This document shows, piece by piece, positions 1,100-64,000 of a stretch of DNA of 64,000 bases (its first letter is position 1; each line of letters starts with the position of its first letter). The notes beneath the pieces were generated by a model. That model was not told the DNA's origin and ran no database searches. It saw only the letters and a list, made by a program, of their open reading frames with translations. Both the position numbers and the translations under genes were made by a program. This DNA is from Eledone cirrhosa (taxonomy: Eukaryota): assembly GCA_964016885.1 (NCBI GenBank), contig OZ024740.1, positions 366,358,001-366,422,000 of the forward strand, in the 5' to 3' direction.

Positions 1100-2155
1100 T
1101 GTTTCTTTACCCAATATATTTCTTCATGATATTTCAAGATGAAGACCTTCTTTTCAAATAAATGTAGAAAAACGAAGTGTTCTGTTCTCATGAAGATTTC
1201 TTATGTTGTGTGAATGGTTGACAGTTGGATTGTACATGAATAGAGTATCATAAAAGCCACTCTGCTTCATGTAGCTCCATTCTATTGTTGATTAGTGGTC
1301 TCTTGCATGTTTAAAATTATCAACAATAGAACTGAGCTACATTGAACAAAGTGGGTATTATGAAGCTCTGCCAAAGTGGGTATTATGAAGCTCTGCCAAA
1401 GTGGGTATTATGAAGCTCTACCAAAGTGGGTATTATGAAGCTCTGCCAAAGTGGGTATTATGAAGCTCTGCCAAAGTGGGTATTATGAAGCTCTGCCAAA
1501 GTGGATATTATGAAGCTCTGCCAAAGTGGGTATTATGAAGCTCTACCAAAGTGGGTATTATGAAGCTCTGCCAAAGTGGGTATTATGAAGCTCTGCCAAA
1601 GTGGGTATTATGAAGCTCTACCAAAGTGGGTATTATGAAGCTCTGCCAAAGTGGGTATTATGAAGCTCTGCCAAAGTGGGTATTATGAAGCTCTGCCAAA
1701 GTGGATATTATGAAGCTCTGCCAAAGTGGGTATTATGAAGCTCTACCAAAGTGGGTATTATGAAGCTCTGCCAAAGTGGGTATTATGAAGCTCTGCCAAA
1801 GTGGGTATTATGAAGCTCTGCCAAAGTGGGTATTATGAATCTATGCCAAAGTGGGTATTATGAAGCTCTGCCAAAGTGGATATTATGAAGCTCTGCCAAA
1901 GTGGGTATTATGAAGCTCTACCAAAGTGGGTATTATGAAGCTCTGCCAAAGTGGGTATTATGAAGCTCTGCCAAAGTGGGTATTATGAAGCTCTGCCAAA
2001 GTGGGTATTATGAAGCTCTGCCAAAGTGCTATCCAACTGTCAACTACACACACATCATAGGAAAGGTTCACGACAACAGAACGCCTCATTTTTCTACATT
2101 CATTTGAAAACAGGGTTGGTACCTTAAAATATCCTGAATAAATATAGTGGGTAAA
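1100..2155. repeat. Diverged foldback (inverted repeat) with a minisatellite expanded in its right arm
   Basis: 1156-1186 and 1217-1235 are reverse complements of ~2075-2105 and ~2026-2044; 1241-1292 is the reverse complement of ~1319-1370. Confidence 0.8.
1347..2028. repeat. 25-bp minisatellite (CCAAAGTGGGTATTATGAAGCTCTG), ~27 copies
   Basis: Units start every 25 nt (1371, 1396, ... 2021) with no spacers. Confidence 0.97.
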
Positions 2156-28070: not shown

Positions 28071-28175
28071 AGGAGGTAGTGTGCAGTAGTGACTCATATA
28101 TATATATAATTCAAGCCAGAATTCAGTTCCCATCCCACCCTTGCAAGCAGGGAAAAGCGAACGTAAAATGATGAT

Positions 28176-29690
28176 GAATTCAAGCATGTCTTGCAACGTG
28201 AGGACCAGACACAGGAGGTGTTCAAGATTGCAAGGCAGTATGTCAGAGAGAATTGTGATGCCATTGGAGAGAAGTGTATCCGGAATGATAAAGGTGAGCT
28301 TGCCCTCACAAGTGCTGAGAAGAAAAATGCATGGAAGAGCCATTATGATAGATTACTAAATGCGGAGAATGCATGGGAAGAAGAGACGCTACCCCAAGTA
28401 GACCCTATAGAGGGGCCAGCAGTACAAGTCAGCAGCAGCGTAGTAAGTAAGGCAATCAAAGATATAAAGATGGGGAAGGCAACTGGTCCATCGGGTATAG
28501 CTGCCGAGATGCTGAAGGCATCTGGGTCGGTATGTCACACCATAACCACACGTATTGTTAACCAGGTAATACTAGAAGGTGTCATACCAAAGGATTGGTG
28601 CAGTAGCATCATTGTCAACTGCTACAAAGGTAAAGGTGATGTACTAGATAGAGGAAACTATGGAGGTATAAAGCTGATGGACCAGGTCATGAAAGTAACA
28701 GAAAAAGTTATAGCACAGTTGATTAGGGAGCGGGTGAAGCTAGAGGAGATGCAATTTGGGTTTGTGCCAGGAAGAGGCACCACTGATGCCCTCTTCCTTG
28801 TGAGGCAGTTACAGGAAAAGTACCTAGCTAAAAGTAAGCTGCTCTACCTGGCATTCGTCGATCTCGAGAAAGCCTTTGACAGAGTTCCCCATGGTATAAT
28901 CTGGTGGGCTTTTAGAAAACTAGGAGTAGATGAATGGCTTGTGAAAGCTGTACAAGCCATGTATAGGGGAGCAGTCAGCAAAGTTAGGATTAGCAATGAC
29001 TATAGCGAGGAATTTAGCATACAGGCTCTGTTCTTAGCCCTCTCCTGTTCATCATAGTTCTGCAGGCAAAAATAAGACCAGATGCCCATGGGATCTCCTG
29101 TATACAGATGACCTCGCACTTATAGCTGAATCTATGGTAGAACTAGAGAAGAAATTCCAAACTTGGAAGCAGGGACTAGAAAGAAAGGGTCTCAAAGTCA
29201 ACCTGACAAAGACTAAGGTCCTTTTGAGTAGACGAGAAGACCTGGGATGAGGTGATAAAAGCCGACCTTATCCAATTACACCTCTCAAAGGCCATGACTT
29301 CACACGACTGTGACCTCTGGCGTCACGCAATAATACAGAAGACCCCCTCCCAAAAAAAAAAGGTACAAGCCGAAGCTGAAGCATATACACAATATGCCCA
29401 CACACCCTCCCACTGCAAAGTGGTCGTGGAGGTGCCACGGCAAAAAAGCACCCAGCCCACACTATAAAGTGGACGTGTAGGCACCACGGAAAATAAATGC
29501 ACCCAGCACTCACTGTAAATGAGGTTGGTGTTAGGAAGGGCATCCAGCTGTAGAAATCAAGCAAGAATCAGTTCCTGTATGAGCAAGGCATGGTCAGTCG
29601 ACCGGACACTGCCCACCACAGGACAACTTGTCTAACCCATGCTAGCGTGGAAGAACGGACGTAAAACGGTGATGATGATGATGATGATGA
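28176..29690 (+). mobile_element. RTE-clade LINE, RT N-terminal half plus 3' UTR
   Basis: ORF 28191-29057: GKATGPSGI, YKGKGD..DRGNY.GIKL, QFGFVPGRGTTDA, FVDLEKAFDRV; LLYTDDL follows; (TGA)n tail. Confidence 0.92.
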
Positions 29691-33481: not shown

Positions 33482-36281
33482 TTTTGCGAGGTTTTTTATC
33501 CACAACAAATAGATGACGAGACAGAGGCACAGTTCACCATAGCTAGAAATAAGATTAGACAAATAGTAGACAGGTATACTAAGAGACAGAGCAGACCAGA
33601 GGCCCAACAACTTGGGAGGAAACCTGTAGAAGGCTTGGTTAGCCTCAAGCAGCGCACAAGGGATGGTGAGGTAGTATGTCTACCCACGGATAAGTCTGGT
33701 AGGATGTCAATAGATAGCATGCCGAACTACATCAAGGCTATGCAACCCCACATCACCAACACGAGCGAAATTGCACAACAAACACACGATGGGAGAGAGA
33801 AAATCCTCAACGCTCACATGATGATGTGGACTGACATCCTAAAGCCAAGCAGACGCACTGCCAACAACTTCCAGGCGTCTAACAATGGCATACCACCCTT
33901 GAATGGTCTTCGCAAAGACCACAAGACAGTCGACGACCCGACAACAGGACCACCAACAAGACCCGTATGCGGAGCTAATATAGCTAGCAACTACAGGATC
34001 TCCTACTTCCTCTCAATGGTTATACGCCCCATAATCAAGATGTCCCCAGATGTATGTGACAGTACAGAGGACCTCCTCAACAGACTCAGTGAGTGCAACA
34101 AAAACAGGAACCTATCCAACTGCATAATAGGCAGCATGGATGTGGTGTCACTGTACCCATCCATTAACATTGATTTTGCTGTGAAAAGATGTGGAGATGA
34201 TCATTGAGAGTGAGGTGGAGTTCTGCGACGTCGACACAGACGAACTGGGCCTCCTACTTAGACTTACCTACGACACTGACTACCTAGACAGCCATGACCT
34301 TAGATGTTTCTGCCCTAGTAGACCTATAAGAGGTAGACCCCCCACCATAACCTCAGTGGCAAAAAAGACTCCCATGGGAAGGTGGATTGGGTGGACCAAA
34401 GCTATACGGACCCCCCAAAACAATGATCAGGTAAGAAAAATGGTCGCACACGCAATAGGAGCTAGTATCAAAACTACCCTAAAGGGCCACATATTTAAGT
34501 TCAACGAGAAGATCTACACCCAAAATGAGGGAGCAGCCATCGGCGTCAGCATAGCTGGTGATGTTGCCAACCTTTTCATGGTATGGTGGGAAAGGAGACT
34601 TAAAGATCTCCTTAATGAGAGCTCCATAGACCTCATCATGTACTCTCGTTATGTAGACGATATCAATATAGTTATAAGAACACCCCCACTAGAGAGCACT
34701 AACAAGTTTGATTTAGAACGTAGCACGATGGAAAGCATCCAGCAGATAGCTAATTCCATACACCAGAGTATAACTGTAACTATCGACTTCCCTTCCAAAC
34801 ACCCTAACAATAGACTACCTGTATTAGACACAGAACTCTGGATTAACACTATAGACGAGAGAGCCCAAATTCTCCACTCACACTATGCTAAACCCATGGC
34901 CTCCAAATACCTGATACTCAAAAACTCAGCAATGTCCAGTAGTGCTAAGTTTAATATTCTGATCGCAGATTTGGTACGAGTGATGAAGAATGTGTCCCGC
35001 ATGTGCGACCCAACAGAAATGGAAAGACACATCCAATACTTCATCAACCGCATGTAGTTCTCTGGCTACAACCAAAGAGACAGAATCAGAGTATACGAAG
35101 GAGCCATGGAGAAGTATAAGACCCTCATAGAACTGGACATGAAAGGAATTTGCCCATTATACAGGAGCAAATCATGGAATAGCTTAGATAGGGCTAGACA
35201 TAAGATAGGGAAAGCCACCTCATGGTACGACAACCAGAGATACCAGAGTGTCATGTTTGTGGACGCTACCCCTGGAGGGAAATTAGCTAACCAGTGTAGA
35301 AAGGCCCTGAGAAAGACCCACTTAAAAATAAAGGTGGTAGAAAAGCCAGGAACCACCATAAAATCCCTGATCAGCAAAACCTACCCTTTTAAGAAAACCC
35401 ACTGTAGGAAATGTATCATATGTAAGGTGAACCCCCGGATAAACTGTAAAACTAGAAACGTAGTCTATAGCATAAGATGTACAGAGGGTACTTGCAGAAA
35501 CATGACAACAACATACATAGGTGAGACAGCTCGTAGCATAGGTGAAAGGATAGACCAACACTGGGGGGGAAAAACGGGTCAGTACTATACGAACATGCTA
35601 GACAACAACATGACGGTAACATAGACAACATAGAAATTAGAATAATATCTAAACATAGAAATGACCCAGCAGATAGGCAAATCAGAGAAGCCAGTGAAAT
35701 AGAAACTAGAAGACCAAGGCTAAACAGAAAGAATGAATGGAATAACAACAACACCCAAACAAACAACACTGACCTAAGAGAAGTATAAATAAGTAAATAA
35801 AATAAAATAAATAAATAAATAAATAAATAAATAAATACATACACAAGCACAATAACAACAAGCACATAAACACACACTAGTCACCCATCACACAGCAAAC
35901 AAAACACTATACACACACGCAAACGCATGCGCAAAGAAGAAAAAATAAAATAAACAAACAAGCAAATAAATAAATAAATATATAGACAGACTGAATAAAA
36001 ATGGCGTAGACATACAATACAACAGGAGGAAAATATAGCACCACTGACGATGTTGCAGATGTGCAACGAAAGATTTATGATAAACTATATATATGTGTTT
36101 GTGTCTATATTGTATCTGTATTATTTTTGACCGCCGGTCAGTCAATGGCAACATTGAGGACCGAGTATATTAGATTACCGATATAAAAGACACAGAAGCG
36201 AGAAGCGAAAACCAACCAAACAGTGAGTGTGTTCTGTTATTAATTCTGGCAATATTACACAAATATGACCCTCCCCAAGTA

Positions 36282-45379: not shown

Positions 45380-46947
45380 TTTTTTTCTAAGGCGGGTAAA
45401 ATTCCCGAGATCCATGGACGAGTTCTCTCCAGCGGTCTCTGTCCCTCATTATCGCTGCCATGTCCTGCGTCTCCAACAGACCAGTGTCTGTCCTTAGGGC
45501 ATCAACATACGTTAACCTTGGTCTTCCTCTTCTAGTGTGTCCATGTAGGGGCTCCCAAAGGAGCACTGAGTGCAATGTCAACTCTGGATGTCGGTGAGCA
45601 TGTCCAGCTAACCTCAGTCTCCTCTGTGTCACTTTTGAGCTGACTTTTGGGATGCTCCCATACAGCTCTGAGTTTTTCATCCTCAGTGTATACTGATTAA
45701 TGTTCAGAGCCATCCTCAACATTCTCGTGTAGCACCCATCCACCATCTGAGTGAGTTTCTTGGTCAGTGTCCAAGTCTCAGACCCATACAGCAGCACAGA
45801 CTCCACTACAGCAATGAAGAGGCGGACTTTCAGGTCTCTACGAAGGTCCGACTTCCACACCGATCTCAAGCTGTGGCACGCCGCCTAGGCCTTGCTCTTC
45901 CTCTCAACCACATCATCTTCCGTATTCCCAATCTTTGCTCCCAAATACAGGAAGCCCTCAACCAATTCTAGCGGCTTCCCGCCTACATTAGTGATCCCCT
46001 CTGTCTTCTCAACATTCTCTACCAGATATTTTGTTTTAGTCTCATTCATTCTCAGCCCCACACTCATCGACACAGTCTCAACCTCCTGCATCAAATCCTC
46101 TGCCTCCTTCACTGTATTTGTCACCAAAACTATGTCGTTGGCAAATTCAGCATCCGATATCTTTTTCGCCCTAACTCTCCTGCTCTGAGCCGGTGCTACA
46201 GTAAAGCCAGAGTCCTGGTGTTTCTCCAGTGCAAGGCGCATACAATAGTCCACTACGATGATAAAAAGGTAGGGAGCCAATGTATCTCCCTGGAGCACTC
46301 CAGCCAGTATCTCAAAGAACTCTGTCATCCCATCAGGTGTAATGACTTGGGCTTTGGTGTTGGTGTAGAGCAGTGATATCAGGTCCACTATCTTCTTGGG
46401 GATTCCATAAGCCTGTAAGATCTTCATCAGGCAGTAACGGTCCACAGAATCAAAGGCCTTCCTAAAGTCAATGAAAACCATGACCGCAGGAAGGCACTTT
46501 GCTCTAGCTCCCTCTAATATCCTCCTCAGCATTAGGATGTGACTGGTGGTTGATCTACCCTCTCTGAAGCCGTTCTGGTTGTCTCTGAGCTTCTTCTCCA
46601 TCTCAGGCTGGATCCTGTTAAGAATCATCTTGCTGAGGGTCTTTGCCACAAGTGACGTCAGTGAGATCCCCCTGTAGTTGTTGGTGTTAGAGAGATCTCC
46701 CTTCTTTGGCACTGGGACGATGTTACTGATCCTCCACTGATTCAGGGCAACTCCCTTCTCCAGTGCCCCGTTACAGAACCCCAGGATGATATCATCAAAA
46801 TCACACCTCTTCATCACCTCTGATGCCACTCCATCTTCTCCATGAGCCTTGCCCTCCTTGATCCTCTTCTTGGCTCTCTGAAGCTCCTCTCTGGTGAAGG
46901 GCTCTGTCTCAACATCCAGTTCCTCAAACAGCCGCCTGATCTCCCCA
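45380..46947 (-). mobile_element. Second RTE family, 5'-truncated RT copy, inactivated
   Basis: NIVPVPKKGDLS...NYRGISL, QNGFREGRST, FIDFRKAFDSV, GVLQGDTLAPYLF; FAND where FADD is expected; TAG at 45885; LLYGSETWTL. Confidence 0.92.
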
Positions 46948-47648
46948 TATATATATATATATATATGAAAAACAAGGGGAGAAGAATACTGCATGGTTGC
47001 ACATGGATTACATATTATAAAATTAGTCCCTCATCAGTGATTTGCCAACCATCATTGGTATTTCATCGCATTAAAAATCAGATACCTCAGGTTGGTTCGA
47101 GCAATAACTAAAATAAGCTATTGGGACAAGTGAAACGCGTAAAGCGAGTGAGACAAGTAAACAAGAGAAGGAAAAGCAAACCGAAGGTTGGAAAAACAGC
47201 AAGCCACATGATAGTTATCCGATCAGCATAAGCTGGGTGAATTTCATGAGCGGTCAGAGAAGCAGACCGTACGCCGTGAATGCGGTGTGAGAAAGAAGGA
47301 ACCCCACTATTAGCGAACGGGAGGAAGTGAGAAGGGGAGAAACAGAGAGTGAGTGTGTGGAAGTGCGAGGAAGAGGCCAGTCGAGAGAAAAAGTGTAACT
47401 GACAGAGAGGGCGAAAGAAGGTAAGAGAAACAGAGAGAACGGGGGAGCAGTAAGAGAGAAAGAAAGAAACAGATAATCGCAGTTTAGGTAAATATATATG
47501 AAAAACAAGGGGAGAAGAATACTGCATGGTTGCACATGGATTACATATATATATATATATATATACGTTATTCCGGGTTGAATCGGAGGTAACCACAGTA
47601 AGTAAGGTACTCAATACATAGCAGAGTATAACAGTTTTAATATAGATG

Positions 47649-47801
<153 letters not shown>

Positions 47802-55610: not shown

Positions 55611-56557
55611 TGACTACCTACCAACCAACCTACCTACCTACCAACCAACCTACCTACGTACGTACCAACCTACCTACCTACCAACCTACCTACCAACCTA
55701 CCAACCTACCTACCTACGTACCAACCTACCAACCTATCTACCTACCAACCTACCAACCTACCAACCTACCAACCTACCTACCAACCTACCTACCTACCTA
55801 CCTACGTACCAACCTACCAACCTATCTACCTACCAACCTATCTACCTACCAACCTACCAACCTACCTACCTACGTACCAACCTACCAACCTATCTACCTA
55901 CCAACCTACCAACCAACCTACCAACCTACCAACCTACCAACCTACCAACCTACCTACCTACCAACCTACCTACCTACATACCAACCTACCAACCTATCTA
56001 CCTACCAACCTACCAACCTACCAACCAACCTACCAACCTACCTACCTACCTACCTACCTAATGACCAACCTATCTACCTACCAACCTACCAACCTACCAA
56101 CCTACCTACCTACCTACCAACCTACCAACCTACCTACCTACCAACCTACCTACCTATGTACCTACCAACCTACCAACCTACCAACCTACCAACCTACCAA
56201 CCTACCTACCTACCAACCTACCTACCTATGTACCAACCAACCTACCAACCTACCAACCTACCAACCTACCTACCTACCAACCTACCAACCTACCTACCTA
56301 CGTACCAACCTACCTACCTACCTACCAACCAACCAACCTACCTACATACCAACCTACCTACCTACCTACCAACCTACCTACCTACCTACCAACCTACCAA
56401 CCTACCAACCTACCAACCAACCTACCAAACTACCTACCTACCTACCTACCTACCTACCTACCTACCTACCAACCTACCTACCTACCTACCTACCTACCAA
56501 CCTACCAACCTACCTACCTACCTACCTACCTACCTACCTACCTACCTATCTATCTAT
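55611..56557. repeat. (ACCT)n/(ACCA)n compound microsatellite
   Basis: Direct reading. Confidence 0.97.
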
Positions 56558-56850
56558 ACCCCTTCTCTGTGCTCCTGAGGAAAAGGGTTGCACACTTTTT
56601 CGGGGGTGTGTGCGACCCCCCAAGGCGCCTCCTCTCTATTGAGGATTTTGTTATAAATTTTATTTTTTGTTATATTTTATAACAAGATCCTCTATTGAGG
56701 ATTTTGTTATAATTCTATTTTTTGTTATATTTTATTTTATTTTTATATATTGTTATTGCCTCCTCCTTATTGAGGACGCCTTGTTTTGTAAACTCCCCCC
56801 ATTGTACTTGTCCCACTTTTGATGCCCTTGTGGCAAATAAAAGAAACATA
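56558..56850 (+). mobile_element. 5'-truncated copy (3' UTR only) of the downstream Tx1 element
   Basis: Matches 62362-62600 with an extra internal duplication; ends AATAAAAGAAACATA(TCTA)n. Confidence 0.92.
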
Positions 56851-57078
56851 TCTATCTATCTATCTGGGATGGACACACGCGTATAACTTGCTGAGTAAGT
56901 TCTGTTTAAATTTCTATAGAAATTCTTGTCTGATAACTTTAATTTTTGTACCATTTTGTAGAGGGACTGCCAGGTCAAACTTTGATCTGGTCAGTCTATC
57001 AAAATATTCTACGCCTTTAGACGAAATAGTTAAACAAAAAAAGTTTTTTCTTGTTGAAAAGTCAATATTTTTTTTTAA

Positions 57079-58872
57079 ATGGCCGAAGCTTCTTCACCAA
57101 AATTCGAAGGAGGAAAGGGGAAGATGAACTTACAGCTTCCCCCTGCCACTGTCACAGTAGCAGAGGTCAAGAAGAAAGGTCAGCCAGAGGAAGAATTCTC
57201 TCCACCTGTTAACCGACAACTTGACGTTGCCATGGCAACAACCCAAAGAACCAGCAGCAACAGCAATAACAACAACAATGCGACGGACGAAAACAACACC
57301 AATAACAATAACAATAACAACAACAACAAGACCAATAACGGTGACAACAACAACAATGATAACAACAACACCACCAACGACAACAACAACACAAACAAAC
57401 AAAATTTCTCCTTCGCCGAGACGACAAGGAAAACCCTCGACTATCTGCCAGTAGATATAACAAAAGCGAAGGAGCTACTGGCGGATGCGAAAAAATATAT
57501 AGTGTACGGAGAAAATGGTTCATTCACAATCCATTCCCCCCCGGAACTAAAAAGCCAGAGACTCCTAAACACGGTCATGTTTAGGACAATCTCGAACAAA
57601 AGTAAAAAACCAGCTCAACCATCACAGAGCGAGATAGAGCTGGTTTTAAAAGACGTCATGAAGGACATCACCTTCATTCAGAAGGATAGACTCTACGGGA
57701 GTCTATCCATTCTCATGAAGGACAGGGACACAGCAGTGAAACTGTCCATCAAACCAATCACATCCACCGCATACACCTTCTACCCTACGTACATGGGTAG
57801 AAGAACACAAAAAATAAAAATCCACACCATCCTGCCGATTATGGACATATGGTGGGTTTTGACAGGTTTTCTGGACCTGGAGGATGACATGCTGGTGTCC
57901 ATGGGAAAGGCATCGGGTGACGCGTTCAGTGGAACGAGCCTCGAACTTGTAGTTCAAATGAGGCCCGAAAGGATCGCCCAGATCCCTGAATGCGTCATAC
58001 TGGATGATCTAACCTTCATCAACATTACCGTTGAGGGTAGACGGCCCTCGTGTTACCTCTGCGGAACCAGAGGTCACCTGAGGGCTGTCTGTCCCCAACT
58101 TAATAAGAAAACCCCAATCCTGCCTACACCACCAACAACTGCACAACCAACACAATCACCACAACTACCACTACAAAAACAACCACCACAGCTCAAACCA
58201 AAACAAAACAATGTCCAACCCATCCCCTCCACTCAAAAAACAAAAACAATTTCCAAAACACCCGTACCGCAAACACAACCCGAAAATATACCCCTCCCCT
58301 CCAACGCGGAAGATGACCCTAGTTCGTCGTCAGACGAGGAGGAGCACTTCCACACAATCAAAAGAAAAAAAAGAAAACACACCTCAGACACACAAATGAA
58401 AAAAAACCCTCCCCAAAACATAACACTGACACCAACACAAAAGAGCTCACAACAACAGCAAACAAAAAACACCACACAAAAACAAAAACATGCATACACA
58501 TACATAAACACAAGAAACAAAAAACTGTTAAACATTGTGTACAACAACAATCTAATAAAAACACAAGGGCCTAACTTCACCCAGGCAGGGGATTTCCCCC
58601 ACCTCAAAATGATTAAGGCCCCACAGGACACCTATAAAACTTTAAAAAACAATTTTGAAGAGGACGTGGGTCACCCCTGCGTCGGGCCCATTAACCGCGT
58701 CCTCCTAAAAAACTATCCCACCCCCTTCCCAAACACCCACACAACTCCAAGCTCCCCAACCACACAACACACTGATGCCCCCACACTTCCACAAACCACC
58801 ACCCCACCCAACAACCCATCCCCCACCCTAATGGAAATTGTGCAGCCCGATACCCGGGACGCAGAGAGGTAA
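57079..58872 (+). CDS. LINE ORF1 protein (CCHC zinc knuckle, poly-Asn, Pro/Gln/Thr-rich tail)
   Basis: 597-aa open frame with CYLCGTRGHLRAVC, upstream of ORF2. Confidence 0.9.
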   Translation: MAEASSPKFEGGKGKMNLQLPPATVTVAEVKKKGQPEEEFSPPVNRQLDVAMATTQRTSSNSNNNNNATDENNTNNNNNNNNNKTNNGDNNNNDNNNTTNDNNNTNKQNFSFAETTRKTLDYLPVDITKAKELLADAKKYIVYGENGSFTIHSPPELKSQRLLNTVMFRTISNKSKKPAQPSQSEIELVLKDVMKDITFIQKDRLYGSLSILMKDRDTAVKLSIKPITSTAYTFYPTYMGRRTQKIKIHTILPIMDIWWVLTGFLDLEDDMLVSMGKASGDAFSGTSLELVVQMRPERIAQIPECVILDDLTFINITVEGRRPSCYLCGTRGHLRAVCPQLNKKTPILPTPPTTAQPTQSPQLPLQKQPPQLKPKQNNVQPIPSTQKTKTISKTPVPQTQPENIPLPSNAEDDPSSSSDEEEHFHTIKRKKRKHTSDTQMKKNPPQNITLTPTQKSSQQQQTKNTTQKQKHAYTYINTRNKKLLNIVYNNNLIKTQGPNFTQAGDFPHLKMIKAPQDTYKTLKNNFEEDVGHPCVGPINRVLLKNYPTPFPNTHTTPSSPTTQHTDAPTLPQTTTPPNNPSPTLMEIVQPDTRDAER

Positions 58873-58896
58873 GTGCCTTTTCTCTTCACCACCAAC

Positions 58897-61800
58897 ATGG
58901 CTATGCTAAGAGTAGGCTGTTTAAATGCGCGTGGCCTGGGCTCAACTTGGAAGCAAGCAATGCTTCTAAATGACCTCAGGTCACAACGTATAGATGTGAT
59001 GGTTATTTGCGAGGCCCGGATCAGCAACGTGCGACAGCTGGCCCCCACCTTTGATGACTTTGAGATGCACGCATCTCTCTGTCAGCCCGGAGGTGGGGGT
59101 GGAGTTGTCGTTCTGCTGCAAAAACATCTGGGTCTCGCAACACAGATGGTACATTTGGACCCGGAGGGTCGACTAGTGGTTCTGGACCTTGGCAGTGGTA
59201 AAGGCGGAGCGTTTAGGTTGGTAGCCGCCTACGGCCCTTTCGGGTCAATGCGGCCGGACTTCTTCCATCGTCTGGAGAGTTTTCTAGGGACGTCCCGCTC
59301 CTTGCTATTAGTGGGGGACTGGAATGGTATCCTAGATGCACGCTGGGACTACGTAGGGGCCTGCCCCGATAGAGAGGGGTGTAATAGCCTCAAAGGGTTA
59401 ATCGGTCGATTTGACCTGGCCGATAGATATCGACTAGATTTTCCGACTGCGCCAACCTGGACTTGGGCAAATCGTAGCGGATCATCTAGGTCGTACCTAG
59501 ATAGGTTCTTAGTTAGAATTAAGGATAAGGACTTTTTAAGTTGTCCAAAAATGCGCATGGTTGGCTATTCAGACCACAAATTAGTGACCTGCATGGTCAA
59601 CCTTGACAGAACTCATAGACAGGGCCCCGGTTACTGGAAGCTCAACTTGTCCTTGCCGGCAAGTAGAGCCTACAGGAATCGGATTAGTACGTTAGTTAAG
59701 GAACGGTTGACTGGAGCGATCGTCAACAGCAGGTGGTGGGTATCTCTAAAGAGAGAGATTAGAGTAGTCTCGATAGAATTTAGTAAGGTTCTAGCTGCGG
59801 ATAGGAATAGGAAGGAAAGGGAGCTAATAGATAGAGTAGAAGAGGCAATTAGAAGCGGCGACGTGGCCAGAGTGCTAGCGTCGAGAACGGCTTTGAGCCA
59901 GTTTTTCGACGCGAAGCACGAAGGCTGCGTTGTCCGAAGTAAAATACGTGCTCTAGGGAACGAGGGGACCAAAGCTGTTAGCTGGGCCCGCGTGACAGAG
60001 GCCAACAGTGGAACTAAATCCACCATCCGGTCTTTGCGAGACCTGGATGGACGGGCGATTCTTGAGCCTAAGCAGATGTGTGAGGCCTTTCAAAGGCACT
60101 TTGCCCGACTGTTCGGGAGGGGCGGGGAGCCGGTTGGGAACGTGGACTTCGGTCCATACCTCGACGGCCTGCCGCGCCTCTCGGACAGGGAGGCGAAGTC
60201 CTGCGAGGAGCCGATTTCGGCCGCTGAGATAGAGGACGTGCTGAGCCAATGCGGCAAACGCAAATCCCCGGGTCTCGATGGTCTTCCTTACGAATTATAT
60301 CTAGCTATGCCGGACTTGTTCCCCGATCTCCTCGAGGCGGTCTACTGCAACTGGCAACAGAACGGGAGAATTCCCTGTACTGTGACCAAGGGCGTAGTCA
60401 CGCTAGTGAGGAAGGACGAGAACAAGGGGGACGAAATAAGTAACTTCAGGCCCATAACACTGCTAAATACAGAGTTACAGATTTTGGCCAAGGTGCTAGC
60501 AAAGAGGTTGGCGCTTGTCGTGGGCAACCTGGTGGGAGATGCGCAGACATGCGCTATCCCGTCCAGGTCCATCCATGACAACCTCCACCTCATGCGATAC
60601 ATCATAGAGAGGGTTGGGAACGAACCCGGCTTTGGTGGGGCTCTGATCAACTTGGATCAATCTAAGGCGTTCGATAGGGTCGACCATGGTTACCTGGATG
60701 CGGTGCTGGCGGCGGCAGGCTTCGGACCCGTTTTCAGGGGCTGGATCACTGCTATGCACAGCAGCCGCATCTGCTCTAGGGTCAAGGTGAACGGCTACCT
60801 CTCGGAGCCGTTCAAAATCGCGCGGTCCATCCGACAAGGGTGCCCTCTCTCCTCCCTTCTGTATGTGTTGACTCTCGAGCCACTATTGCGGAAGTTGGAG
60901 TTGTTGCAGGGCATCCCTTTGGAACCGGGATTGCGGAAAGCGGTGTCGGCCTACGCCGATGACGTGACAGTAATGGTGTCGACGGCCTCCGAAATCGAGG
61001 CGGTCGGCACCTTACTGGAGGAGTACGAAAAGTTCACAGGGGCTAAGCTGAACCGGGACAAGTCGATCGGTTTGCAGCTCGGCACGTGGAGGGGCAGACC
61101 GATGCCCTCCGATGGCGTCGTCGGACGCTGGACGGAGGGCCCGGTGAAGTTGCTCGGGGTCTGGTTCGGACCGGACCTCCAGGTGGAGAAAAACTGGGCG
61201 GAGGTTACGAACAGGGTGTTTGCACTGACCCAGAAGTGGGCCAGTTGCAAACTATCCCTGAAAGGTCGGGCGGAGGTGGCGAACACCTACATAGCGTCCG
61301 TCATCTACTACCGCCTGACCGTAGTGCCCTGCCCAAGGGAAACCCTCACCAAGATGGAGCGCGCGCTCTTCCAATTCCTTTGGAAGAGGCGGGCTCCTAT
61401 GGTGAGGAGATCCATCTGCTGTCAACACCCTTCGAAAGGAGGGCTGGGGATGGCGTGGCTAATGATGCGTAAACACGCATTAAGGCTACGGCACCTCTAC
61501 GTATTCCTCACCGGACAACCGGTGTGGGCCTCGTTTGTGAGACGAACCTTTCCCAGACTCGTCTCACTCACCGAGCTGCAATCCTGGGTCAAGCAAAGAC
61601 CGAGAAAACTGGGCGCCTGGCACACTGAGTGTGCCCAGGCGCTCACTGCCCTCTGGCAGGCGGATCCGGTTATCAGTGGAGACTCCACCGCAACATTCTA
61701 TAGAGGGCTGGTACGCAGCAGGTGCGACGACGCCCTCGGAGAAGCCCTAGACATGGAGGAGGACGAACTGGCCAGCCTGTTCGGTAGGACATTCAGCCCG

Positions 61801-62142
61801 GGACCTATGGACAACTTCCAGAAGTCCCTGGCCTGGCAGTGCTACCGAGGGGCTTTACCCGTTCGAGAAAGGCTCTACAGACACGGGCGCCCGGGTAGGG
61901 ACCCCGCCAAAAAGATCTGTCCCAGATGCGTGTGCGACGAGGAAACCGTTGCACACGCATTGGTACACTGCTCGGGCGTAGCCGATCTGTGGGGCTATGT
62001 CGAACAACTGCTGTCAAGGGTGGGACCGATCCGGTTGACCACCGAGTCTATTGTAATGATCAAGCCGCCTCCCCCCTTCAAAGATGAAGCAGAGGCGGTG
62101 TTTCTGTGCGTAATAGCCATGGCGAAAGAGGTTGTATGGTGA
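58897..62142 (+). CDS. LINE ORF2: AP endonuclease, RT and C-terminal Cys/His motif (probably prematurely stopped; homology continues to 62334)
   Basis: LNARGL, GDWN, SYLDRF, SDHK, GPGYWKLN, KSPGLDGLPYE, NFRPITLLN, LDQSKAFDRV, RQGCPLS, AYADD, CPRC...ETVAHALVHC. Confidence 0.95.
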   Translation: MAMLRVGCLNARGLGSTWKQAMLLNDLRSQRIDVMVICEARISNVRQLAPTFDDFEMHASLCQPGGGGGVVVLLQKHLGLATQMVHLDPEGRLVVLDLGSGKGGAFRLVAAYGPFGSMRPDFFHRLESFLGTSRSLLLVGDWNGILDARWDYVGACPDREGCNSLKGLIGRFDLADRYRLDFPTAPTWTWANRSGSSRSYLDRFLVRIKDKDFLSCPKMRMVGYSDHKLVTCMVNLDRTHRQGPGYWKLNLSLPASRAYRNRISTLVKERLTGAIVNSRWWVSLKREIRVVSIEFSKVLAADRNRKERELIDRVEEAIRSGDVARVLASRTALSQFFDAKHEGCVVRSKIRALGNEGTKAVSWARVTEANSGTKSTIRSLRDLDGRAILEPKQMCEAFQRHFARLFGRGGEPVGNVDFGPYLDGLPRLSDREAKSCEEPISAAEIEDVLSQCGKRKSPGLDGLPYELYLAMPDLFPDLLEAVYCNWQQNGRIPCTVTKGVVTLVRKDENKGDEISNFRPITLLNTELQILAKVLAKRLALVVGNLVGDAQTCAIPSRSIHDNLHLMRYIIERVGNEPGFGGALINLDQSKAFDRVDHGYLDAVLAAAGFGPVFRGWITAMHSSRICSRVKVNGYLSEPFKIARSIRQGCPLSSLLYVLTLEPLLRKLELLQGIPLEPGLRKAVSAYADDVTVMVSTASEIEAVGTLLEEYEKFTGAKLNRDKSIGLQLGTWRGRPMPSDGVVGRWTEGPVKLLGVWFGPDLQVEKNWAEVTNRVFALTQKWASCKLSLKGRAEVANTYIASVIYYRLTVVPCPRETLTKMERALFQFLWKRRAPMVRRSICCQHPSKGGLGMAWLMMRKHALRLRHLYVFLTGQPVWASFVRRTFPRLVSLTELQSWVKQRPRKLGAWHTECAQALTALWQADPVISGDSTATFYRGLVRSRCDDALGEALDMEEDELASLFGRTFSPGPMDNFQKSLAWQCYRGALPVRERLYRHGRPGRDPAKKICPRCVCDEETVAHALVHCSGVADLWGYVEQLLSRVGPIRLTTESIVMIKPPPPFKDEAEAVFLCVIAMAKEVVW

Positions 62143-62600
62143 ACGCGTCTGAAAGGACTGAGGTCAGGCACCTTTCTCTCTGGCCAACAACTGGTCCGTT
62201 TCTTCCGATATCATTTCGGAAGAAGGATCAGGATGGAGAGAGAGGTGCTGCACCCCAGCCGTTTCTATGAAAGATGGGTGAAAGTGGCGAGAATGGCCCG
62301 TGTGAATGGGCCTTCACTCTACATCAGAATATAGGTGAGGAAGATGAAAGACCAAGGGAGCACCCCTTCTCTGTGCTCCCGAGGAGAAGGGTTGCACACT
62401 TTTTTCGGGGGTGTGTGCGACCCCCCAAGGCGCCTCCTCTCTATTGAGGATTTTGTTAAAAATTTTATTTTTTGTTATATCTTATTTTATTTTTATATTT
62501 TGTTATTGCCTCCTCCTTATTGAGGACGCCTTTTTGTGTAAACTCCCCCCTTTGTACTTGTCCCACTTTTGATGCCCTAGTGGCAAATAAAAGAAACATA

Positions 62601-64000
62601 TCTACCTACCTACCTACCTACCTACCTACCAACCTACCAACCTACCTACCTACCAACCTATCTACCTACCTAACTACCAACCTACCAACCTACCTACCTA
62701 CCTACCTACCAACCTACCAACCTACCAACCTACCTACCAACCTACCTACCTACCAACCTATCTACCTACCTACCTACCAACCTACCTACCTACCTACCTA
62801 CCTACCTACCTACCTACCTACCTACCAACCTACCAACCTACCTACCTACCTACCTACCAACCTACCAACCTACCAACCTACCTACCTACCTACCAACCTA
62901 CCAACCTACCAACCTACCTACCAACCTACCAACCTACCTACCTACCTACCTACCAACCTACCAACCTACCAACCTACCTACCTACCTACCTACCAACCTA
63001 CCAACCTACCAACCTACCTACCTACTTACCTACCTACCAACCTACCTACCTACCAACCTATCTACCTACCTACCTACCTACCTACCTACCTACCAACCTA
63101 TCTACCTACCTACCTACCTACCTACCTACCTACCTACCTACCAACCTATCTACCTACCTACCTACCTACCTACCTACCTACCAACCTACCTACCTACCTA
63201 CCTACCTACCTACCTACCAACCTACCTACCTACCTACCTACCTACCTACCAACCTACCAACCTACCAACCTACCTACCAACCTACCTACCAACCTATCTA
63301 CCTACCTACCTACCAACCTACCAACCTACCTACCTACCAACCTACCTACCAACCTATCTACCTACCTACCTACCTACCAACCTACCTACCTACCTACCTA
63401 CCTACCTACCTACCAACCTACCCGCCTACCTACCTACCAACCTACCTACCTACCAACCTATCTACCTACCTACCTACCTACCTACCTACCAACCTATCTA
63501 CCTACCTACCTACCTACCTACCTACCTACCTACCTACCTACCAACCTACCTACCTACCAACCTACCTACCTACCTACCTACCTACCTACCTACCTACCTA
63601 CCTACCTACCTACCAACCTACCAACCTACCTACCTACCTACCTACCTACCTACCTACCAACCTACCCGCCTACCTACCTACCAACCTACCTACCTACCTA
63701 CCTACCTACCTACCAACCTACCTACCTACCTATCTACCTACCAACCTACCTACCTACCTACCTACCAACCTACCAACCTACCTACCTACCTACCTACCTA
63801 CCTACCTACCTACCAACCTACCCGCCTACCTACCTACCAACCTACCTACCTACCTACCTACCTACCTACCTACCTACCAACCTACCTACCTACCTATCTA
63901 CCTACCAACCTACCTACCTACCAACCTACCTACCTACCAACCTATCTACCTACCTACCTACCTACCTACCTACCTACCAACCTACCCGCCTACCTACCTA
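62601..64000. repeat. (ACCT)n/(ACCA)n compound microsatellite, open at the window end
   Basis: Direct reading, >1.4 kb. Confidence 0.97.

What the first reader, a model, noticed from the sequence alone, without database searches (positions are those of the whole stretch)
55611..64000. Tx1-clade LINE apparently targeting, or generating, an (ACCT)n/(ATCT)n microsatellite
Seen: two insertions of one family (truncated 56558-56850, full-length 56866-62600) in the same orientation within one array. Both 3' ends read AATAAAAGAAACATA-TCTA with no poly(A), and both 5' junctions abut (TATC)n. Established: Tx1-clade elements are often sequence-specific (Kibi/Koshi in TC/TTC repeats, Keno in U2, Dewa in tRNA arrays). 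Inference: this family has a tetranucleotide target specificity I do not recognise, or its RT extends the repeat as a tail, which would explain the kilobase arrays.
Basis: partly seen in the sequence, partly recalled or inferred. Interest (0 to 1): 0.7.

Follow-up and report, generated by a model that had tools for sequence, protein, structure and literature searches.

The report
Octopus-type LINE targeting ATCT microsatellites
A young, abundant jumping-gene family, likely from an octopus relative, sits in one fixed orientation at ATCT repeats across the genome and likely cuts there; the kilobase ACCT array in this window is likely an older host it landed in, not a tail it wrote.

Summary
Observation confirmed: a truncated (56558-56849) and a full-length (56864-62599) LINE lie head to tail in an (ACCT/ACCA)n array, without poly(A). 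The target is ATCT, not ACCT: of 2,583 exact 3' ends genome-wide, 2,199 continue with ATCT, 1,542 with ATCTATCT, 28 with AYCTACCT, 0 with the reverse repeat. 37 of 154 copies show diagnostic target-site duplications (mostly 8-20 bp) starting directly at the 3' end, around ATCT^ATCT. Tail-writing of kilobase arrays is not supported: the two longest of 20 other ACCT arrays (1.3 kb) have no LINE nearby, though 5 of 8 long ones do. Full-length copies likely bring a few ATCT units at their 5' end (9/16 versus 7/44 at off-target sites; a stricter test is not significant). A sister family, 69% identical in ORF2, sits in (ATT)n (27 of 28). Strict Tx1-clade membership is unresolved by trees. It works like Kibi, Koshi and crocodilian Tx1 families, with a target I did not find in eight paper searches (Repbase not searchable). 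This scan has already noted the same family group several times on other DNA.

The parts
55614..56547 (+). left (ACCT/ACCA)n array, with 6 lone ATCT units
56548..56557 (+). left copy of the likely 10-bp target-site duplication of the truncated copy (ATCTATCTAT)
   Evidence: ambiguous in phase because it is a repeat
56558..56849 (+). 5'-truncated copy, 3' UTR only, subfamily with a 55-bp internal duplication
56850..56863 (+). (ATCT)3-AT spacer: right copy of the duplication plus the likely 5' ATCT leader of the full-length copy
   Evidence: leader inferred
56864..62599 (+). full-length L1-group (Tx1-like) LINE, about 99.6% identical in ORF2 DNA to its nearest fetched copies
57079..58872 (+). 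ORF1, 597 aa, Asn-rich stretch and one CX2CX4HX4C zinc knuckle; no Pfam match
58897..62142 (+). ORF2, APE endonuclease, RT (YADD), CCHC finger; 1081 aa, premature stop against 1145 aa in open copies
62586..62599 (+). AATAAA and the 3' end, no poly(A); joined directly to ATCT
62600..64000 (+). right (ACCT/ACCA)n array, beginning with a lone ATCT unit; runs on to about 64246

Best explanation
This is a young L1-group (Tx1-like) LINE family, with thousands of copies, that sits at ATCT repeats in one orientation, likely because its endonuclease nicks the AGAT strand at about AGAT^AGAT and primes reverse transcription there. Shown: ATCT after 85% of 3' ends, no reverse orientation, target-site duplications, no poly(A), stacking behind own and sister copies. 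Inferred: the RNA is likely read from upstream ATCT repeats through to just past AATAAA, so that both ends can pair with the target; full-length copies therefore likely finish with a few ATCT units at the 5' junction, which with the duplication makes a fresh target for the next copy. In this window the full-length copy likely landed first at a lone ATCT unit of a pre-existing ACCT/ACCA array, seeded the only (ATCT)n run of that array, and the truncated copy then landed in this run.
For: Genome counts: 2,583 3' ends, 2,199 +ATCT (19), 1,542 +ATCTATCT (20), 28 +AYCTACCT (33), 0 reverse (34). Both junctions read in 154 copies (75 full, 79 truncated; 26 more had no 5' end in view): diagnostic duplications in 12 of 75 and 25 of 79; median 13 bp among 21 truncated non-(AT)n cases; site profile from 28 sites is ATCTATCT upstream (T at -1 in 27 of 28) and ATCTA downstream. 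71 of 75 full-length 5' ends have an 8-nt ATCT run within 25 nt. At sites whose 3' flank leaves the ATCT period within 7 nt, a 5' run of 8 nt or more is seen in 9 of 16 full-length and 7 of 44 truncated copies (Fisher P=0.006); L090 shows a 15-bp duplication followed by five ATCT units absent from its minisatellite host. 34 of 75 full-length copies lie within 150 nt of an own or sister 3' end. L127 shows a truncated copy with a 16-bp duplication directly in front of a full-length head, and L112/L147 repeats the window's layout in another ACCT array. All 21 ATCT units of the window's arrays are single. 14 of 20 other ACCT arrays, among them the two longest, have no such LINE within about 3 kb.
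Against: No nicking assay and no RNA data: specificity could partly come from RNA-target pairing rather than the nuclease. 117 of 154 copies gave no diagnostic duplication (most lie in pure repeat, where it cannot be seen). 10 of 35 truncated copies with a 3' ATCT run of 8 nt or more lack ATCT at the 5' side; some look nested or chimeric, but a short carried tail is not excluded for them. The strict leader test (extra bases beyond a diagnostic duplication) gave 5 of 12 versus 2 of 25 (P=0.025), and 2 of 7 versus 2 of 21 (P=0.25) once (AT)n hosts were dropped; L090 and L091 are likely one event. 5 of 8 ACCT arrays of 400 bp or more abut a LINE, against 1 of 12 shorter ones, so a link between insertion and array length is not excluded. 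Subfamily ages do not fix the order of the two window copies.
Confidence: 0.85

Rival explanations
1. The RT writes or extends the repeat as a 3' tail, and the kilobase arrays are its product.
For: No poly(A); repeats follow most 3' ends; 10 of 35 truncated copies have ATCT only at the 3' side; 5 of 8 long ACCT arrays abut a LINE.
Against: The array lies on both sides here and is ACCT/ACCA, while the family's junction word is ATCT; 37 copies join their duplication directly; 3' flanks include unique DNA, (AT)n and minisatellites; L243 and L246 are 1.3-kb ACCT arrays with no LINE.
Confidence: 0.04
2. The nuclease is only loosely specific for T^A steps, and the ATCT bias comes mainly from pairing of the RNA's AUCU ends with the nicked target.
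For: Off-target sites keep AT or ATCT at the junction; (AT)n hosts occur (3 of the first 30 copies); the 5' leader evidence suggests repeat-bearing RNA ends.
Against: The sequence upstream of the duplication, which a 3' RNA end need not pair with, is also ATCT-like; ATATATAT is far commoner locally than ATCTATCT (1,974 versus 3) yet seldom used; the endonuclease is the most diverged domain between ATCT and ATT sisters (61% versus 80% in RT), though that is usual for these proteins.
Confidence: 0.2
3. Insertion is unspecific and copies merely survive in, or accumulate next to, microsatellites.
For: Passive accumulation near CA repeats is proposed for Waldo-A/B (PMC3812793, passage).
Against: Fixed phase, fixed strand (0 reverse of 2,583), and the youngest copies are the most faithful (ATCTATCT in 57 of 76 copies at 98% or more identity, 14 of 27 below 94%).
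Confidence: 0.01

Closest known systems
Crocodilian Tx1 families on (TTCC)n/(TTTC)n (Tx1-1_Crp, Tx1-5_Crp, Tx1-6_Crp, Tx1-1_Gav, Tx1-2/3/5/8_AMi; PMC4494074, passages and section 15 read, supplements not available)
   Same: APE-RT LINE of the L1 group with a preference for a tetranucleotide microsatellite
   Different: Target is ATCT/AGAT; host is likely an octopod; no supported sister relation to vertebrate Tx1 proteins in my trees
Kibi (TC)n and Koshi (TTC)n of teleosts (Kojima and Fujiwara 2004, not read; as cited in PMC4494074 and PMC3812793 passages)
   Same: Microsatellite-specific insertion by a Tx1-type element; close relatives differ in target word
Waldo (ACAY)n and Mino (AC)n, R1 clade (PMC3812793 and reference title, passage)
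   Same: APE-type LINE specific for a tetranucleotide repeat
   Different: R1 clade, insects; this ORF2 is of the L1 group
R2 elements co-transcribed with their target (PMC4494074, passage in section 20)
   Same: Likely transcription from flanking target sequence that aids target-specific integration
   Different: R2 has a restriction-like nuclease and one site in 28S rDNA; here the leader is inferred from junctions only
Octopus L1-Tx1 repeats (PMC13282606, PMC8967140, passages)
   Same: Recently active L1-Tx1 families are reported in Octopus vulgaris (13 families, 421 insertions)
   Different: The passages found say nothing on target sites

Membership tests
L1 group of non-LTR retrotransposons | ORF2 with APE endonuclease, RT and C-terminal CCHC finger | tested here: met
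   Pfam domains, motifs, best solved match human L1 ORF2p E 2e-47 against R2 3e-19
L1 group of non-LTR retrotransposons | Two ORFs, 5' truncation, target-site duplications | tested here: met
Tx1 clade | RT groups with Tx1-type proteins apart from the L1 clade | tested here: inconclusive
   Quick tree of 56 rows: joined with YTX2-named proteins at SH-aLRT 92, not starred (one plant row dropped). Careful trees of 26 rows (RT) and 16 rows (EN+RT): unresolved. References are only source-named 'YTX2 protein', not curated Tx1 families.
Tx1 clade | Higher similarity to Tx1-type than to L1-type ORF2 | tested here: met
   BLASTP bits 283-296 to three YTX2-named proteins, 347 to a medaka relative of them, 206-224 to fish L1-like proteins (L1-like status)
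Tx1 clade | Gag-like ORF1 with CCHC knuckle (feature recalled, from no call) | tested here: met
   CX2CX4HX4C at ORF1 residue 325
Microsatellite-specific APE LINEs (Kibi/Koshi type) | More than 20% of flanks in one repeat type (criterion of PMC4494074, passage) | tested here: met
   1,542 of 2,583 3' ends; 71 of 75 full-length 5' ends
Microsatellite-specific APE LINEs (Kibi/Koshi type) | Endonuclease cleaves the repeat selectively | not testable with these tools
   needs a nicking assay
Kibi / Koshi | Target (TC)n or (TTC)n | tested here: not met
   Target is ATCT
Kibi / Koshi | RT clusters with Kibi/Koshi sequences | not testable with these tools
   no named Kibi or Koshi sequence came from any call

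The most novel reading that the evidence does not exclude
An invertebrate LINE lineage, separate from the vertebrate Kibi/Koshi line, switched recently from (ATT)n to (ATCT)n with few changes in its endonuclease (about 18 fixed differences in six sequences, one in the predicted target-reading hairpin loop, Ser194 against Ile), and it seeds its own landing pads: each full-length insertion carries ATCT units in its 5' leader into foreign DNA, so the family both makes new GATA microsatellites and builds its own stacks.
Probability: 0.35. Interest if true: 0.6.

Novelty: new variant of a known kind. Interest (0 to 1): 0.4.

Why it matters
How APE-type LINEs choose microsatellite targets is called poorly understood (PMC3812793, passage, 2013). 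Two young sister families in one genome, 69% identical in ORF2, with many open copies and different target words (ATCT, ATT), make the question testable by endonuclease assays and loop swaps. If the leader deposits ATCT units, LINEs are a source of new GATA repeats from the 5' end rather than from a poly(A) tail. The kilobase ACCT array itself is an ordinary microsatellite.

Tried and rejected
DNA search of the own genome with the 3' end gave nothing because common words are skipped; patterns were used instead. ACCT as main target: rejected. Counts of array starts (7,014 for ATCT, 1,076 for ACCT) miss arrays preceded by T and cluster in long arrays, so they give no sound per-array rate. RNA: no RNA holder listed; laid contigs of four runs show the family in three studies but cannot show RNA ends or empty alleles. 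The 3' UTR end does not fold better than shuffles (z -0.27). The last 5'-junction pattern fitted only the window's own junction type (40 of 361) and was not used further. ORF1 has no Pfam match and no look-alike search result was obtained for it. Dating the two window copies by subfamily did not separate them. only adds 543 further 3' ends of the variant ending in TAT plus ATCTATCT, without a total for that variant. No test of one clade was run on the trees.

Full report
Observation. The window holds, on the + strand, an (ACCT/ACCA)n array (55614-56547), ten bases ATCTATCTAT, a 292-bp 3' UTR fragment (56558-56849), fourteen bases of ATCT repeat, a full-length LINE (56864-62599) and a second ACCT/ACCA array that ends about 246 bp past the window. 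Both 3' ends read AATAAAAGAAACAT then ATCT, with no poly(A). ORF1 (597 aa) has a CCHC knuckle; ORF2 has APE endonuclease, RT and zinc-finger domains and stops early at 1081 aa, while 37 distinct 1145-aa versions were found among fetched loci. The nearest named relative is an Argonauta hians protein (67% over 41% of the query), so the host is likely an octopod.

Target. The 20-mer that ends the element occurs 2,583 times exactly, a 27-mer of the 5' end 361 times. Of the 2,583, 2,199 continue with ATCT, 1,542 with ATCTATCT, 28 with ATCTACCT or ACCTACCT (25 and 3) and none with the reverse repeat within 3 nt. In window 1-55,000, both strands, ATCT makes 0.47% of positions, ATCTATCT 3 of 110,001 and ATATATAT 1,974. 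So the word is ATCT, in one orientation; ACCT is a minor host entered mostly at ATCT interruptions.

Junctions. I fetched copies from the head of the two lists (contigs C1 and C2) plus the 28 ACCT-context hits; after removing duplicates by flank, 180 copies remained, 154 with both ends in view. The sample is enriched for full-length and ACCT-context copies by design. A duplication that reaches at least 3 nt beyond the ATCT run was found in 12 of 75 full-length and 25 of 79 truncated copies; among 21 truncated cases outside (AT)n the lengths were 8-18 bp, median 13. In these the 3' end joins the duplicated target with no inserted tail; by construction the test cannot show copies that do carry one. 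The 28 non-simple sites give ATCTATCT upstream and ATCTA downstream, that is a likely bottom-strand nick at a T-A step of AGAT^AGAT; the position is uncertain by 1-2 nt because the element's last bases match the target. Ten of 35 truncated copies with a long 3' ATCT run have none at the 5' side.

5' leader. 69 of 75 full-length copies have CT before GGGATGG and 51 have ATCTCT; 71 have an 8-nt ATCT run within 25 nt. Where the 3' flank leaves the ATCT period within 7 nt, full-length copies still show a 5' run of 8 nt or more in 9 of 16 cases (L091 dropped as a likely duplicate of L090), truncated ones in 7 of 44 (P=0.006). The stricter count of extra bases beyond a diagnostic duplication gave P=0.025, and P=0.25 without (AT)n hosts. 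I read this as likely, not shown: the RNA starts in upstream repeat and a few units are copied.

The arrays. One search listed about 36 ACCT-array loci on C1 in its first 100 rows; I fetched 20, leaving out the window's own, three already seen beside family copies and twelve others. Six of 20 abut a Tx1-type LINE in the same sense; 14 have none within about 3 kb by tblastn and tail motif, including the two longest (1,284 and 1,324 bp). Five of 8 arrays of about 400 bp or more have a LINE, 1 of 12 shorter ones. Kilobase ACCT arrays thus arise without the element, and long ones are often hit, most simply because they hold more ATCT units; a feedback of insertion on array length is not excluded. 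In the window all 21 ATCT units away from the junctions are single, so the one (ATCT)n run is best explained as brought by the full-length copy, followed by the truncated copy with a 10-bp duplication. L127 shows this order directly in another ACCT array, and L112/L147 has the same layout. Subfamily ages do not decide the order here.

Relatives. Three further families (84-85% ORF2 identity; 5, 1 and 1 long ORFs) end in ATCT runs, and 34 of 75 full-length copies follow an own or sister 3' end within 150 nt. A family at 69% identity ends in (ATT)n in 27 of 28 ends read (29 loci), as does a single further copy at 68%. The ATCT families form a starred clade (100/100), with the large ATT family as sister (99/99) and the other ATT copy outside, which suggests an ATT-to-ATCT switch; sampling is thin. 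About 18 endonuclease positions differ in a fixed way between four ATCT and two ATT sequences, one of them (Ser194, Ile in both ATT proteins) in the stretch that aligns with the L1 hairpin loop (the loop's role in target choice is recalled, not from a call).

Classification. L1 group: met. Tx1: higher scores to YTX2-named proteins than to fish L1-like ones, a 92% SH-aLRT grouping in a quick tree, unresolved in two careful trees. It is best called Tx1-like. It is not Kibi or Koshi by target.

Literature. Eight full-text searches listed no paper on an ATCT/GATA-targeting LINE. Read as passages: PMC4494074 (also section 15; supplements unavailable), PMC4640811, PMC3812793, PMC8967140, PMC13282606. 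They give TC, TTC, TTCC, TTTC, ACAY, AC, TAA and TG as known targets, and report active L1-Tx1 families in octopus without target data. Kojima and Fujiwara 2004 and Repbase were not seen, so a database description cannot be excluded. Earlier notes of this scan describe the same family group in this and other genomes; they are not independent support. What this window adds is the ACCT question: secondary host, not product.

Verdict. A real, young, strongly target-biased LINE family; a new target word for a known way of life; interest 0.4, chiefly for the ATT/ATCT sister pair and the likely 5' seeding.

Noticed in passing
about 64458-65548 in window numbering (L100, past the window's end): A third, 5'-truncated copy of the same family about 210 bp after the array ends, same orientation, with a 10-bp duplication at ATCTATATAT.
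   Followed up: partly
L264-L293: Sister family with open 1139-aa ORF2 whose 3' ends run into (ATT)n in 27 of 28 cases.
   Followed up: partly
L248, L249, L252, L262, L263, L170: At least three more ATCT-ending sister families, interleaved head to tail with this one.
   Followed up: partly
window 33482-35624 (+): Broken Penelope-like element: weak RT match followed by a GIY-YIG match.
   Followed up: no
window 28167-29057 (+) and 45387-47653 (-): Other LINE remnants with RT matches (E 5.5e-12 and 1.4e-31); the second has a DUF6451 match downstream.
   Followed up: no
window 1347-2028: Homogeneous 25-bp minisatellite, 27 copies, 96% matches.
   Followed up: no
L002, L073, L187: Three separate insertions share the same upstream flank, so another repeat family ending in ATCT likely serves as a recurrent host.
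   Followed up: no
L222: A full-length copy preceded by a duplicated first 25-30 bases of its own 5' end, likely a template jump.
   Followed up: no
P0002-P0077: The nearest non-octopod relatives (mostly 40-50% identity) are many unnamed proteins from ENA/JGI assemblies that form the sister group in the trees; their hosts and targets are unknown.
   Followed up: no
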